Below are positions 1 to 4,903 of a stretch of DNA of 64,000 nt, one piece after another. The DNA is from Naegleria gruberi (Eukaryota): NCBI GenBank assembly GCA_000004985.1, contig GG738855.1. The stretch is one strand, 5' to 3'. How positions within the stretch are numbered: the first letter of the stretch is position 1; each line of letters opens with the position of its first letter. Made by a program: the position numbers and the translations under genes. The notes beneath the pieces are model-generated. The model saw only the letters and a list, made by a program, of their open reading frames with translations. It did no database searches and was not told where the DNA came from.

Positions 1-709
1 AAATGGTTCCTTTCAAAAATCCAATTTTAACATCAGTTCTATTCAATTGTGGAGCAGTTGGTGTTGAAATACTTGGGTCCAAATTAGATCTCATATACGC
101 AGGAGAAGAGTATCCATAATTACATTGAAAGTGTGCTTTTTGCTCTCTTGCTTCGTTTTGAGCTGTTGTGAATAAAATTTACAAATGTGATGAATTACTT
201 ATTTAACTATTTAACTTTCTAAAATTAAACTTACCAACATTTGATGTCACAACATCACACTCACCATTATTTACAGCTTTTGCCATAGTTTCAAAGAAGC
301 CCAAAGCAGCCAAGTTATAGGTTCTATATGCATATGCAAGATTAGTCTTGTAATTTGTATTAATTAATGAAACAATTGACTTTCCAACCAAGTGAAAAAC
401 TTCTGAATATGGATAGACAGCGTCATCTTCAAAACACATTGTTAAATTTGTTCTTCCAACGAAAGGGTTTTTAGTTGGGAAGGCAGTGAGACCAGACCCA
501 CAGAGAGGATTAGCCAACCCCATCAATTCCTCATATTTTGATGTGAAAGAACTGTCTTTCAACATTAGCTTGACTGCATAATCGATGGCATCTGTGAAAT
601 CTTGTGAAACAGTTATCTGAGCATTCAAAGTGGCTACAAGGGAAGCAAGTGCCACCAGTAAAACTATAATGAAATGGATGGTGTGTTTTTGTGATGTGGA
701 GTGTCTCAT
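1..709 (-). CDS. Secreted protein of unknown function (partial; 3' end lies beyond window start)
   Basis: ATG at 709 (minus). N-terminus MRHSTSQKHTIHFIIVLLVALASLVATLNAQ is a typical signal peptide. Exon 1 235-709; GTAAGT donor at 229-234; 62-nt intron 173-234 ending AG; exon 2 runs 172 to 1 in frame (..TSNVAQNEAREQKAHFQCNYGYSSPAYMRSNLDP..) and stays open at the window edge. No family recognised. Confidence 0.5.
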
Positions 710-1210
710 TGTTTTTTATTTTTTGAATGAATCGTTTCAACAACACTTGGTTGCGTCTTTATTCGATTCTTCCACCCAAACCTTGTTTGTGAAGCTTTGG
801 CAATGAACTTGCACCACGAAAATGGCAATTTTTGCTGCAGTTAAGAGGTGAATTTCACAAGGTGTGAAATGTCCAAAAGCACTAGCTTGTTAAAGATGCA
901 AAGTGTTCTGACCACAGAATTGAAACTAACAATATGTGGAATTGTTACCTCAAACCTCCAAGTGTTATTTCATGTTTTGACTGTTGTTGAAATGTGATAT
1001 CGAATTTGGTAGCCATTAACATTTTGGAACAACCAAAATAAAAACTGAGATAACAGTTCCCCATTAAAATTCATAAATGAATCATCGGCAGCCGTAGATA
1101 TTATCCATCTACAACTTTTAGCTTCGTTACTTGCCACATGGATTCGTTACCGAATCGAATGCATTCCTTATGTTTAACTCTCATTAAAGTCTCAAATCAT
1201 CACAACAGAT

Positions 1211-3108
1211 TTATTGGTGCCATGTTTTGGATTCATCATAAATATTAATCTTGTATCTGAAAGAAATAACCTTATTTCTTAAATTTGGTTGTTTTGGAAG
1301 GGGATCTTTGAATACAACCTTGAATTTGCCACTCTGGCCAAATGGTGAATCAATTATACCTGAAAATCTTGGTTGGTCATCAATGAGAATATCAATCTTC
1401 TTTCCAATGAAAAATTGCAGTGATTGAGTTTTGGAAGTGAGAAGATTTTTTCCAATAATTGTGTTGGCATCAACAACTCTATCAACTACAGCTTTCTTTT
1501 CCTTGTATTTAAAAACAGGAAGAGAGTTGACAAGCTGTTCTTTGGAAACATTGGATTTGTTCCACATCTTGATAACTTTACCATTGAATGCCAATCTACA
1601 CATATTCGCATCTATTTGTGTTAGAAAAGATGATCGTAAAAAACTTACTGATATCTGTATCCAGTTTGGAAGCAATATAATTAGAGTTTGGATAGCAACA
1701 CACTGGTTTTTCAAATTCAATTTTAACAAAAACATCTTTTTCTTGATAAGTTGTTTCGGTCAATTCCTCCAATAAAGAGTACTCTACCGTTGTATCGAAT
1801 ATGTTACTTGAAAGGCCTTCTTTCTTGGCTCTGGCGATAAGGGAAACATTTCCCATAACAGTTTCATGCCCAATAGATACTATTTCAATTAGTACAGAAA
1901 TGATTACTAGAATACATACTGTGATATTTTGCAGAGTTTTTGATTTCCTTCTTGAAAAATCTGATTCTAGAAGCATTTGCTAGAATTGTGTCAACAATTT
2001 CAATATAGCCTTTGTCACATGCAAAACCTCTCTCCAGCTTTTTGCTATCCAATTTTGTAACTGCAATACCAATTCGATCTCCTTTAATTGCCTTATCTAC
2101 AGGTGTTTTAAACATTTGGATGGATTTGACCTTCTTTTCCTCCCCAATAGAAGGAATTTGAATTGTTTTACCAATACTAACACTGCCTTGCAAAACAGTT
2201 CCTGTAATAATAGTTCCCTTTCCTTTGATTGTAAAACAGTGGTCAACCATATATAGGAATGGCTCATTTTCATCCTTTTCTGAAATTTTTACATGTTTTT
2301 GGAATTCAGCAATGAGATTTTTAAGTCCTTGTTCCTTTGTTATACTTTCACTTTCTTCTCTTGGATCAGCACAAACAGAAACAATTGGAGGGTTTTTAAA
2401 TTTAGTTTGGGAAAAGACATTCTTAATGAGACTTTTCTTAATCTGTAATGAAAATTAATTTCCTAAATATATTTTGAAATTACTGACCTTATCAACACGG
2501 TCCTCTCTTTGATCTGCTGGAATCATATCGACCTTATTGAGGGCAACAATTAAATTATTACATGAAATTTCTCCAATAACAATGCATTCAGCTGTTTGAG
2601 TTTGTACACCTTTCACAGCATCAATAACCAATACCATGAAATCAATAATTTGAGCTCCACCAATAATTGTTCTAATTAAACTGGCATGGCCAGGACAATC
2701 TACAAGAGTATATTGAATCCTATCATATTCAGATAATGGGGAATCAGAGTAAAATGCAGAGAAACCCAAATCTTGAGTAATACCTCTTTCTTTTGATTGA
2801 GGACTTTTATCAAAGGCTGCTGTTGAAGCGTGAGTTGACAGAGCTTTACATAAACTTGTTTTTCCTTTCAAATAAATCATTAGAATAAATTTCATTAAAA
2901 ACTCACCAGAATCAACATGTCCTATTATTATTGAAATAAGAATTGATATTAGAATTGAGAAACAAACCTAAAATTCCAACATTTACATTTAATATTCTAT
3001 GTGATGATCGGAGAGTTACATTCTCTTCTCCTCCTTGATTATTTGTTTCCGAATCTTGGTTTTGATTTGTGAACTTGATGGCAAACTGGTTTCCTTCTCT
3101 GTAGACAT
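1211..3108 (-). CDS. EEFSEC: Selenocysteine-specific translation elongation factor (eEFSec/SelB), six exons
   Basis: Spliced translation gives ..ILNVNVGILG|HVDSG|KTSLCKALSTHASTAAFDKSPQSKERGITQDLGFSAF..TLVDCPGHASLIRTIIGGAQIIDFMVLVIDAVKG..NKVDMIP (GTPase domain), ..FTIKGKGTIITGTVLQGSV.. (domain II), ..AKYHISIGHETVMG.. and ..CRLAFNGKVIK..IIDSPFGQSGKFKV (C-terminal domain IV), all matching eEFSec as I recall it. Approximate exons: 2968-3108, 2907-2921 (15-nt micro-exon), 2488-2864, 1920-2442, 1649-1879, 1211-1611. Introns of 46, 42, 45, 40 and 37 nt (GTTTGT/GTGAGT/GTCAGT/GTATGT/GTAAGT..AG). Start codon uncertain (see finding). Confidence 0.85.
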
Positions 3109-3300
3109 TTTTTATTAATATCTAACTTTTTAATTTCGCCTCTTTACAGACTTGAATATGCTTCACTGGTAAATAAATGTTTTATCTAAATATTCTCTTA
3201 AGTTATAATTGCTGATTGACTTTGTGATAATCAATCGGATCAATCATTAAATTAATTTTTAAATATTCGTGATGACATCACACAATAATTATTAATAAAA

Positions 3301-3714
3301 ATGAGTGATTTGGATGCTGGAGAGGACATGTTTGATGATTTTTTAAATTCCCGTCTTGAGGATGATGAAACCATAGGCCATGATCAATCTGTTACTGATG
3401 CTATCAATGATGATGAATTTGAGAAATTATTGAATGAATCTGAGACAGAGACTGTACAAAATGAACCGGAAAAGGAATCAATCAATGTTGATTTATCATC
3501 AGCAACAACAATAACTGCATCCACTGAATCCGTCATTGAAAAGAAGGAAGAACAAGTTAAAGATGATGAGGAAGTCATTGAATTTTCGTGGAGCGATGAA
3601 GACTATAGCAAAGACGAAACCGATCAAGTTAATCAAAATAATGCAATTTCAGAAATTAAAATTCAACAAGAAAAACCAGTGACAATTGAAAAGTCAGAAA
3701 ATAGGGAACTCTAA
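3301..3714 (+). CDS. Small acidic protein (Asp/Glu-rich), function unknown
   Basis: ATG-initiated 137-aa ORF MSDLDAGEDMFDDFLNSRLEDDETIGHDQ.. with strong acidic bias. May continue into the next ORF through a +1 frameshift or an unresolved intron near 3686-3714. Confidence 0.4.
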   Translation: MSDLDAGEDMFDDFLNSRLEDDETIGHDQSVTDAINDDEFEKLLNESETETVQNEPEKESINVDLSSATTITASTESVIEKKEEQVKDDEEVIEFSWSDEDYSKDETDQVNQNNAISEIKIQQEKPVTIEKSENREL

Positions 3715-4391
3715 TTTAACAAATAATGCTAGTAATAGTACTACTACTGATCAGGGAACATCAGTTAAAAGTGAGGAAATAATTGAAACTAGAATTAGTG
3801 TAATGATTTCCGACGTTTTGAATAGATTTGGAAAAGTAATTGACATTGATAGTAGATCGGAAGCTATTGAGAATAGAATTAAACATTTGAAAGAAGAAGA
3901 GGTAGAGTCTGAGTATAGTTTTGGAAAATTAAAAGGTAGTATTCAGAGAAAATTGGTAGTTCTCGAATGTGCTGTAGAGAATTTGTGTGTTCTTGTGGAA
4001 AAGAATGTACAAAGAAAATTGAAATTGAGAGAATCTAAACAGGTTTTGAAAGAGCAATTGAGAGCAAACATTGAAAAATACTCTGAAAAGTGCACTCAAT
4101 TAGATGAACAGAAAGAGAAATACTCCAAGATGGAAAATTTATGGGAAAAGGATAGAAAGAACCTTGTAGATCTCATTGAAAAATTGAAGCAACAAGTAGA
4201 AAGCAAGGATCCTGAAAATGAATTCCTCAAAACAATGAAAATTCCAGAAGCTCCTAAAGCAACAGACTCTGAAGACAATACTCTTTCTAACCTTACTAAA
4301 TCTCTCCTATCACTTCCAGAAGCTTGGAAATCCTCTAATCCATCCGATTCTAATCCCCAATCTTCCAACACATCCTCTAGCTCTTCAGCCG
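3686..4391 (+). CDS. Coiled-coil protein, partial (runs into assembly gap; may be 3' part of the preceding acidic protein gene)
   Basis: Open frame ..ISVMISDVLNRFGKVIDIDSRSEAIENRIKHLKEEEVESEYSFGKLKGSIQRKL..LKEQLRANIEKYSEKCTQLDEQKEKYSKMENLWEKDRKNLVDLIEKLKQQVESK.. with heptad-like composition. First in-frame ATG is at about 3803. The frame is still open where the N run begins at 4392. Confidence 0.35.
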
Positions 4392-4903
4392 NNNNNNNNN
4401 NNNNNNNNNNNNNNNNNNNNNNNNNNNNNNNNNNNNNNNNNNNNNNNNNNNNNNNNNNNNNNNNNNNNNNNNNNNNNNNNNNNNNNNNNNNNNNNNNNNN
4501 NNNNNNNNNNNNNNNNNNNNNNNNNNNNNNNNNNNNNNNNNNNNNNNNNNNNNNNNNNNNNNNNNNNNNNNNNNNNNNNNNNNNNNNNNNNNNNNNNNNN
4601 NNNNNNNNNNNNNNNNNNNNNNNNNNNNNNNNNNNNNNNNNNNNNNNNNNNNNNNNNNNNNNNNNNNNNNNNNNNNNNNNNNNNNNNNNNNNNNNNNNNN
4701 NNNNNNNNNNNNNNNNNNNNNNNNNNNNNNNNNNNNNNNNNNNNNNNNNNNNNNNNNNNNNNNNNNNNNNNNNNNNNNNNNNNNNNNNNNNNNNNNNNNN
4801 NNNNNNNNNNNNNNNNNNNNNNNNNNNNNNNNNNNNNNNNNNNNNNNNNNNNNNNNNNNNNNNNNNNNNNNNNNNNNNNNNNNNNNNNNNNNNNNNNNNN
4901 NNN
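4392..4903. other. Assembly gap (512 N)
   Basis: Uninterrupted run of n. ORF-track entries that translate it as X (3686..5614 plus, and 4096..5070, 4377..4973, 4385..4909 minus) are artefacts across the gap. Confidence 0.99.

What the first reader, a model, noticed from the sequence alone, without database searches (positions are those of the whole stretch)
2865..2967. 15-nt micro-exon in the P-loop of the selenocysteine elongation factor
The G1/P-loop motif GHVDSGKT is split across three exons: ..ILNVNVGILG | HVDSG | KTSLCKAL... The middle exon is only 15 nt (2907-2921), flanked by introns of 46 nt (GTTTGT..TAG) and 42 nt (GTGAGT..AAG). Without it the frame and the invariant Asp-Ser-Gly-Lys are lost. 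Micro-exons this small are rare and hard for gene predictors; the gene would be mis-annotated by automated pipelines.
Basis: partly seen in the sequence, partly recalled or inferred. Interest (0 to 1): 0.6.

Follow-up and report, generated by a model that had tools for sequence, protein, structure and literature searches.

The report
15-base exon inside eEFSec P-loop
In the amoeba Naegleria gruberi, five amino acids of the GTP-binding loop of the selenocysteine elongation factor sit on a separate 15-base exon; the public gene model misses it, but tiny exons that annotators miss are already a known phenomenon.

Summary
Confirmed from sequence and comparison; no transcript data were available. 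The window is Naegleria gruberi NEG-M. The eEFSec gene lies on the minus strand (about 3108..1211). GACATGTTGATTCTG (2921..2907) lies between canonical introns of 46 nt (2967..2922) and 42 nt (2906..2865). Only this splice solution gives GHVDSGKT, a motif found as GH[VI]DSGKT in 118 of 118 homologues. The spliced protein matches human eEFSec at E=4e-130 with no gap across the P loop. A second, 99%-identical strain keeps the exon exactly but carries a SNP in intron 1 and a 1-nt deletion in intron 2.

RefSeq XP_002680038.1 starts at an ATG inside intron 2 and lacks GHVDS.

One claim is wrong: skipping 15 nt keeps the reading frame and removes only the motif.

New here: N. fowleri and N. lovaniensis have no introns at these two positions. 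They split the same loop with a conserved 5-nt exon (ACAAG), and both N. fowleri models get it wrong. Willaertia and two related metagenome or sequencing-run contigs have an unsplit loop.

This is a new example of a known kind (a mis-annotated constitutive micro-exon). The 5' end of the gene still has an unresolved 1-nt frame discrepancy.

The parts
2968..3108 (-). Coding exon 1 of eEFSec, from ATG 3108-3106 to the phase-1 end TTTTAG|. It contains an unresolved +1 frame discrepancy near 3066-3060.
   Evidence: The start context aaaaaATGTCT matches that of L004, and the upstream P-loop-frame peptide NVTLRSSHRILNVNVG matches homologues.
2922..2967 (-). Intron 1: 46 nt, GTTTGT...CTAAT (27 nt before the 3' splice site)...AATAG. 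Its only AG is the terminal one. Found at this position only in N. gruberi.
   Evidence: The second strain (L003) carries an A>G SNP here.
2907..2921 (-). 15-nt micro-exon GACATGTTGATTCTG, encoding (G)HVDS(G) of the G1/P-loop motif.
   Evidence: It is identical in strain L003.
2865..2906 (-). Intron 2: 42 nt, GTGAGT...CTAAT (15 nt before the 3' splice site)...GAAAG.
   Evidence: It is 41 nt in strain L003 because of a 1-nt deletion, so it is not under a coding constraint.
2878..2880 (-). False start codon of the public model XP_002680038.1 (MIYLKGKT..), inside intron 2.
   Evidence: compared with the sequence.
2488..2864 (-). Exon 3: KTSLCKAL...DRVDK. It holds switch 1, DCPGH (G3) and NKVD (G4).
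2443..2487 (-). Intron 3: 45 nt, phase 0. The position is shared with N. lovaniensis.
1920..2442 (-). Exon 4: end of the G domain, domain II and the start of domain III.
1880..1919 (-). Intron 4: 40 nt, phase 1. The position is shared with N. lovaniensis and Willaertia.
1649..1879 (-). Exon 5 (domain III).
1612..1648 (-). Intron 5: 37 nt, phase 1. The position is shared with N. lovaniensis.
1211..1611 (-). Exon 6 (domain IV, ...KTWHQ, with stop TAA at 1213-1211).

Best explanation
This is an ordinary constitutive coding micro-exon of the Naegleria gruberi eEFSec gene.

Two very short introns (46 and 42 nt) are each recognised on their own (intron definition). Each has a GTNNGT donor, a CTAAT branch-like motif and the first AG downstream of that motif as acceptor. 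Removing both joins exon 1, the 15-nt exon and exon 3. The mRNA then encodes an intact G1/P-loop, GHVDSGKT, which the GTPase needs to hold the alpha and beta phosphates of GTP and so deliver Sec-tRNA(Sec).

Both introns are specific to the N. gruberi lineage. The N. fowleri/N. lovaniensis lineage splits the same loop at two other positions around a 5-nt exon (ACAAG). Willaertia and two related contigs have no intron there.

Shown:
- the genomic anatomy;
- that only one splice solution restores the motif;
- orthology to eEFSec;
- the polymorphism pattern between the two strains;
- the mis-annotation of the public model.

Inferred:
- actual inclusion of the exon in the mRNA;
- the intron-definition mechanism;
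- that the introns were gained separately in each lineage.
For: - The spliced 554-561 aa product aligns to human eEFSec (5izk/7zjw) at E about 1e-130, with LNVNVGILGHVDSGKTSLCKALSTHASTAAFDK against VNVNVGVLGHIDSGKTALARALSTTASTAAFDK and no gap.
- Pfam GTP_EFTU, GTP_EFTU_D2, euk_SelB_III and eEFSec_4th all score above their cut-offs.
- All 118 other full-length homologues have GH[VI]DSGKT. Profile scores are 686.7 bits with the exon, 659.0 skipped, 662.3 with intron 2 retained and 648.7 for the public model.
- Only 1 of 17 canonical in-frame splice solutions restores the motif, and 0 of 300,000 shuffles do.
- Both flanking introns have the same size (37-46 nt), GTNNGT donor and CTAAY/TTAAT motif as the three introns whose positions are conserved in N. 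lovaniensis.
- An independent metagenome assembly of a 99%-identical strain (L003) has the same arrangement. The exon is identical, intron 1 has a SNP, and intron 2 has a 1-nt deletion that would shift the frame if intron 2 were coding. The exons carry 7 substitutions, 6 of them synonymous.
- A parallel case: the 5-nt exon ACAAG and its AG/GTAAAT borders are a conserved island between diverged introns in N. lovaniensis and N. fowleri. It is required to reproduce the N. lovaniensis RefSeq protein.
Against: - No cDNA, EST or RNA-seq junction was available. The protein collection holds no transcript-derived N. gruberi ORF across the junctions, and the metagenome scan found none.
- The acceptor of intron 2 is AAG rather than the more usual YAG.
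- The ATG at 3108 is not in frame with the P-loop exon in this assembly. The gene model is therefore not closed at its 5' end. If that frameshift is real, the NEG-M copy could be defective.
Confidence: 0.85

Rival explanations
1. The 103 nt (2967..2865) are removed as a single intron and the 15-nt segment is never included. The result is an in-frame protein ..GILGKTSL.. with no functional P loop.
For: The skip is in frame and stop-free, using the same outer GT and AG.
Against: - It deletes HVDSG, which is invariant in 118 of 118 homologues, and costs 27.7 bits.
- The internal AG|..|GT sites and a second CTAAT motif would then be coincidental; 0 of 300,000 shuffles reproduce them.
- The 15 nt are identical between strains while both flanking introns vary.
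- The other introns of this gene are 37-46 nt, not 103.
Confidence: 0.03
2. The micro-exon is alternatively spliced. Regulated skipping, or retention of the in-frame 42-nt intron 2, produces a GTPase-dead eEFSec isoform that tunes selenoprotein synthesis.
For: Both alternatives keep the reading frame in NEG-M. Micro-exons are often regulated in animals (PMC8378409, abstract listed).
Against: - The in-frame property of intron 2 is not conserved: it is 41 nt in the second strain.
- Nothing suggests regulation, and no Rfam match or repeat copy lies around the exon.
- The related species split the loop at other places. This argues against a conserved regulatory design.
Confidence: 0.07
3. The locus is a decaying or mis-assembled copy, and the apparent micro-exon is a by-product of insertions into a dead gene or of an assembly error.
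For: The annotated start region shows a +1 frame discrepancy between ATG 3108 and the P-loop frame. The scaffold contains an N gap nearby, at 4393-4903.
Against: - After splicing, the rest of the 1.7-kb CDS is open and 79% identical to N. lovaniensis.
- Strain-to-strain exon substitutions are 6 synonymous to 1 non-synonymous.
- An independent assembly shows the same micro-exon arrangement.
- The inserted segments carry complete splice signals.
Confidence: 0.05

Closest known systems
Mis-annotated constitutive micro-exons of 15 nt or less in plants (Yu et al. 2022, PMC8831610), and extreme cases such as the 1-nt exons in Arabidopsis (PMC4674806) and Fusarium CYP621A (PMC12940212)
   Same: A tiny internal coding exon inside a conserved domain, flanked by canonical introns, needed to rebuild a conserved motif, and missed or mangled by automatic annotation.
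   Different: This one is in a heterolobosean amoeba with 40-nt introns. It is not conserved even within the genus: sister lineages cut the same motif at other positions. No RNA-seq support has been examined yet.
Human eEFSec (PDB 5IZK/5IZL/5IZM, 7ZJW; P loop 14-GxxxxGKT-21)
   Same: The same four-domain architecture and the same G1, G3 and G4 motifs. The micro-exon encodes the counterparts of His15-Ser18.
   Different: Whole-protein identity is roughly 45-50% (one search gives 44-51% for animal homologues). The Naegleria protein lacks the long insertion after switch 1 seen in the alignment. The human gene's exon structure was not examined here.
N. lovaniensis eEFSec model XP_044543647.1 (C9374_010757) and the N. 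fowleri locus FDP41_007310
   Same: They are orthologues (79% identity for N. lovaniensis) sharing three intron positions with N. gruberi. Their P loop is also interrupted by a micro-exon flanked by two lineage-specific introns.
   Different: Their micro-exon is 5 nt (ACAAG, Thr plus two bases of Ser). It lies after GK rather than before it, with introns of 86-103 nt. None of the four intron positions coincides with another.

Membership tests
eEFSec (eukaryotic selenocysteine-specific elongation factor, SelB midfamily) | Translational GTPase G domain with G1 GH[VI]DSGKT, G3 DxxGH and G4 NKxD | tested here: met
   GHVDSGKT (only with the micro-exon), DCPGH and NKVD are all present in the spliced product. 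PF00009 matches at E=1.3e-31. The motifs align with human 14-GxxxxGKT-21, 92-DxxGH-96 and 146-NKxD-149.
eEFSec (eukaryotic selenocysteine-specific elongation factor, SelB midfamily) | Eukaryote-specific domain III and C-terminal domain IV | tested here: met
   PF21208 euk_SelB_III scores 103.9 bits (cut-off 27) and PF21131 eEFSec_4th scores 57.3 bits (cut-off 27).
eEFSec (eukaryotic selenocysteine-specific elongation factor, SelB midfamily) | Closest solved and annotated relatives are eEFSec, not EF-Tu, eEF1A or eIF2-gamma | tested here: met
   Human eEFSec scores E=3e-130, archaeal SelB 2e-52 and EF-Tu 4e-37. The named hits among the top 120 database matches are overwhelmingly eEFSec.
eEFSec (eukaryotic selenocysteine-specific elongation factor, SelB midfamily) | Binds Sec-tRNA(Sec) and GTP and supports UGA recoding | not testable with these tools
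   This needs biochemistry. Other papers cite work on the Sec machinery in N. gruberi (titles seen), but that paper could not be read here.
Constitutive coding micro-exon (15 nt or less) | Internal exon of 15 nt or less, bounded by canonical AG and GT, in phase with both neighbours | tested here: met
   AATAG|GACATGTTGATTCTG|GTGAGT, phase 1 at both ends.
Constitutive coding micro-exon (15 nt or less) | Needed to restore a conserved protein segment | tested here: met
   Only 1 of 17 splice solutions gives the motif. The profile gains 27.7 bits, and 118 of 118 homologues have the motif.
Constitutive coding micro-exon (15 nt or less) | Observed in mature transcripts | not testable with these tools
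   No N. gruberi transcript-derived sequence was found in the collections searched.
Constitutive coding micro-exon (15 nt or less) | Evolutionary conservation of the micro-exon across species | tested here: not met
   It is conserved only between two N. gruberi-type strains. It is absent from N. lovaniensis, N. fowleri, Willaertia, L004 and L005. This feature is typical of micro-exons, not a strict defining one.

The most novel reading that the evidence does not exclude
The eight codons of the eEFSec P loop are a hotspot of intron turnover in Naegleria. Two lineages have each acquired a different pair of introns within about 25 nt, or have shifted an ancestral intron by 5 nt (N. gruberi G^GA AAA against N. 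fowleri/N. lovaniensis GGA AAG^). The result is non-homologous micro-exons of 15 nt and 5 nt in the same motif.

The 2-nt-offset intron pair at QTQTAE|C (Willaertia against N. lovaniensis and L004) adds a second such site. That would make this gene a compact natural example of recent intron gain or sliding in a lineage where introns are sparse.
Probability: 0.45. Interest if true: 0.55.

Novelty: new member of a known kind. Interest (0 to 1): 0.38.

Why it matters
**Practical value**
- The reference proteomes of N. gruberi (XP_002680038.1 / D2V719) and N. fowleri (XP_044558636.1, CAG4709028.1) carry eEFSec models with a destroyed GTP-binding loop.
- Anyone scoring the presence or integrity of the selenocysteine machinery, building trGTPase alignments, or considering the selenoproteome of the brain-eating amoeba as a target would be misled. 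Corrected models follow directly from the coordinates given here.

**Conceptual value (modest)**
- It adds a protist example to the known problem of missed micro-exons.
- It offers a tidy case of lineage-specific intron gain or sliding inside an invariant motif, where the coding constraint fixes the exon boundaries unambiguously.

Tried and rejected
1. **A 23-nt intron (3019..2997, GTAACT..CATAG) to link ATG 3108 to the P-loop frame.** It closes the frame. I rejected it because it deletes the peptide VTLRSSHR, which is conserved in L004/P0252 and similar in N. lovaniensis, and because its donor lacks the GTNNGT pattern.
2. **A 20-nt intron, GTTCAC..CCAAG.** It is frame-compatible, but it has no branch motif, a poor donor and about half the length of any other intron in the gene. 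I judged it unlikely but could not exclude it.
3. **Looking up the spliced protein in the assembly index.** Look-ups of N. gruberi proteins P0124, P0249 and P0253 found no record.
4. **Metagenome scan with a 24-mer matching both the spliced and unspliced forms.** It returned 45 hits. Of these, 44 are marine archaeal aIF5B-like genes sharing the codons for LGHVDSGK, and one is a ciliate-like eEFSec. No Naegleria DNA or cDNA was among them.
5. **Searching with the upstream neighbour protein to find a second-strain contig covering exon 1.** Only the NEG-M protein came back.
6. **Looking for other copies of the two introns in the 64-kb window (introner-like origin).** None were found beyond 9-16-nt chance matches.
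7. **Rfam scan of 1..4390.** Nothing relevant appeared, and no tRNA genes were found.
8. **Literature.** No open paper links Naegleria with eEFSec gene structure or with micro-exons.

Full report
**Origin and gene**

Intronless ORFs elsewhere in the window are identical to Naegleria gruberi NEG-M RefSeq proteins on a 613-kb scaffold (XP_002679937.1, XP_002679939.1, XP_002680039.1). The window is therefore N. gruberi nuclear DNA, about 34% G+C. The finding lies on the minus strand.

**Checking the observation**

Read on the minus strand, the sequence is ...AGA ATA TTA AAT GTA AAT GTT GGA ATT TTA G | gtttgt...aatag | GA CAT GTT GAT TCT G | gtgagt...gaaag | GA AAA ACA AGT TTA TGT AAA GCT...

- intron 1 is 2967..2922 (46 nt);
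- the micro-exon is 2921..2907 (15 nt);
- intron 2 is 2906..2865 (42 nt).

Three more short introns (45, 40 and 37 nt) complete the gene. The spliced CDS is open to a TAA at 1213..1211 and reads ..RILNVNVGILGHVDSGKTSLCKALSTHASTAAFDK...

**Identity of the protein**

- The product matches human eEFSec structures at E about 1e-130, archaeal SelB at 2e-52 and EF-Tu at 4e-37. The P-loop block aligns without a gap.
- Pfam finds GTP_EFTU, GTP_EFTU_D2, euk_SelB_III and eEFSec_4th, all above their cut-offs.
- The best database relatives are N. lovaniensis (79% identity) and Willaertia magna (69%). After them comes a mix of unnamed metagenome or EukProt sequences and eEFSec from animals, algae and Acanthamoeba.
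- In human eEFSec the P loop is 14-GxxxxGKT-21, and its backbone amides hold the alpha and beta phosphates (PMC5059743). The micro-exon encodes the counterparts of His15-Ser18 plus parts of both flanking glycine codons.

**Is it more than chance, and is the exon needed?**

- All 118 other full-length homologues retrieved have GHVDSGKT (100) or GHIDSGKT (18).
- A profile built from them scores the micro-exon isoform at 686.7 bits. The skipped isoform scores 659.0, the isoform retaining intron 2 scores 662.3 and the public model scores 648.7.
- I enumerated all canonical GT-AG solutions with introns of at least 30 nt that stay in frame without a stop. There are 17, and only one restores the motif. 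None of 300,000 shuffles of the 103 nt contains such an exon.
- Both flanking introns resemble the three introns whose positions are conserved in N. lovaniensis. They are 37-46 nt long, have a GTNNGT donor, carry a CTAAT/CTAAC/TTAAT motif 9-27 nt before the acceptor, and use the first AG after that motif.

**Independent strain**

An ENA metagenome contig (L003, 3,370 nt) is 99% identical and starts inside intron 1.
- It has the same arrangement, and the 15 nt are identical.
- Intron 1 has an A>G change.
- Intron 2 has lost one T and is 41 nt long, so it cannot be coding.
- Intron 3 has one change.
- The exons carry seven substitutions, six of them synonymous.

This rules out an assembly artefact. 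It also shows purifying selection on the exons and relaxed constraint on the segments called introns.

- Skipping the exon does not break the frame. It yields ..GILGKTSL...
- Retaining intron 2 is also in frame in NEG-M.
- What is lost in both cases is the nucleotide-binding loop.

- The public N. gruberi model was hidden inside a cluster represented by a metagenomic fragment. It is XP_002680038.1 / EFC47294.1 / D2V719 (NAEGRDRAFT_31689), a 515-aa 'predicted protein'. It starts MIYLKGKTSLCKAL.., at the ATG at 2880..2878 inside intron 2, and lacks exon 1 and GHVDS.
- Both N. fowleri models are also wrong at the same loop. XP_044558636.1 reads through an intron (GHVDSGKVSGGICFDF...), and CAG4709028.1 jumps from GK to ALSTMAST.

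**Comparative anatomy**

- In N. lovaniensis (L001) and N. fowleri (L006, with L053 as an independent assembly) there is no intron at either N. gruberi position.
- Instead the sequence is GGA AAG | gtgagt...(91 or 86 nt)...tag | ACAAG | gtaaat...(98 or 103 nt)...ag | T CTC TGT AAG. This is a 5-nt exon encoding Thr plus two bases of Ser.
- That exon is required to reproduce the N. lovaniensis RefSeq protein from the genome.
- TTAG-ACAAG-GTAAAT is a conserved island between diverged, indel-rich introns.
- Willaertia (L002), a Naegleria-like metagenome contig (L004) and a more G+C-rich related contig from a public sequencing run (L005) have an unsplit P loop.
- Mapped on a protein alignment, three N. 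gruberi introns are shared with N. lovaniensis, and one of those also with Willaertia. The four P-loop introns occupy four different positions.
- N. gruberi intron 2 and N. lovaniensis intron A both begin GTGAGTTTT(T)AAT and lie 5 nt apart. Homology through sliding is possible but cannot be demonstrated.

**Mechanism**

The most likely reading is plain constitutive splicing of two independently defined short introns. The 15-nt exon simply carries coding sequence. Nothing points to regulation: the in-frame length of intron 2 is not conserved between strains, no RNA family or repeat is associated with the region, and the related species cut the loop elsewhere.

**What remains open**

- No transcript evidence could be reached with the tools.
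- The ATG at 3108, whose context and first residues resemble L004, is in a different frame from the P-loop exon. Homologues support both the ATG and the upstream P-loop-frame peptide NVTLRSSHRILNV. The simplest explanation is a 1-nt indel in the A run near 3066-3062. A 20-nt intron is a poor alternative, and a 23-nt intron is rejected.

**Verdict**

The observation and interpretation hold. This is a new instance of a well-known class, the mis-annotated micro-exon (PMC8831610, PMC4674806, PMC12940212). It has practical value for Naegleria annotation, and the lineage-specific cutting of the same motif is a modest evolutionary curiosity.

Noticed in passing
window 3108-3000 (minus strand): ATG 3108-3106 opens a frame that stops at TAA 3021-3019. 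The P-loop frame is offset by +2 and has no ATG. Homologues support both the ATG and the upstream P-loop-frame peptide, which implies a 1-nt indel near the A run at 3066-3062 (an assembly error or a strain mutation) or, less likely, a 20-nt intron.
   Followed up: partly
L001 4248-4252; L006 3240-3244; L053 about 2990-2994: N. lovaniensis and N. fowleri eEFSec carry a 5-nt micro-exon (ACAAG) in the P loop (GK|TS|LCK). The N. lovaniensis model includes it. Both N. fowleri models (XP_044558636.1, CAG4709028.1) are wrong there.
   Followed up: yes
L002 4409/4410 vs L001 4618/4619 and L004 about 1233/1234: A near-intron pair at QTQTAE|C. The intron is phase 0 after Glu in N. lovaniensis and L004, and phase 1 inside the Glu codon in Willaertia (a 2-nt offset). 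N. gruberi has no intron there. Either the intron slid or it was gained independently.
   Followed up: partly
window 4393-4903: A run of about 510 N (a scaffold gap) interrupts the ORFs of the next gene(s) on the plus strand.
   Followed up: no
window 3301-3714 (+): A divergently oriented neighbour, 193 nt from the eEFSec ATG. It is an acidic 137-aa 'predicted protein' of N. gruberi with no homologue outside NEG-M in the 5.8-billion-protein collection.
   Followed up: partly
L007-L051 (metagenome contigs): The 19-mer TAGGACATGTTGATTCTGG also occurs in 44 marine archaeal aIF5B-like genes (MRIRQPIVSVLGHVDSGKTSLLDK...). L016 is a ciliate-like eEFSec with in-frame TAA codons.
   Followed up: no
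protein cluster of P0125: The 515-aa RefSeq N. gruberi protein is filed under a 141-aa metagenomic fragment as cluster representative, so homology searches did not display it. It surfaced only through the cluster listing.
   Followed up: yes
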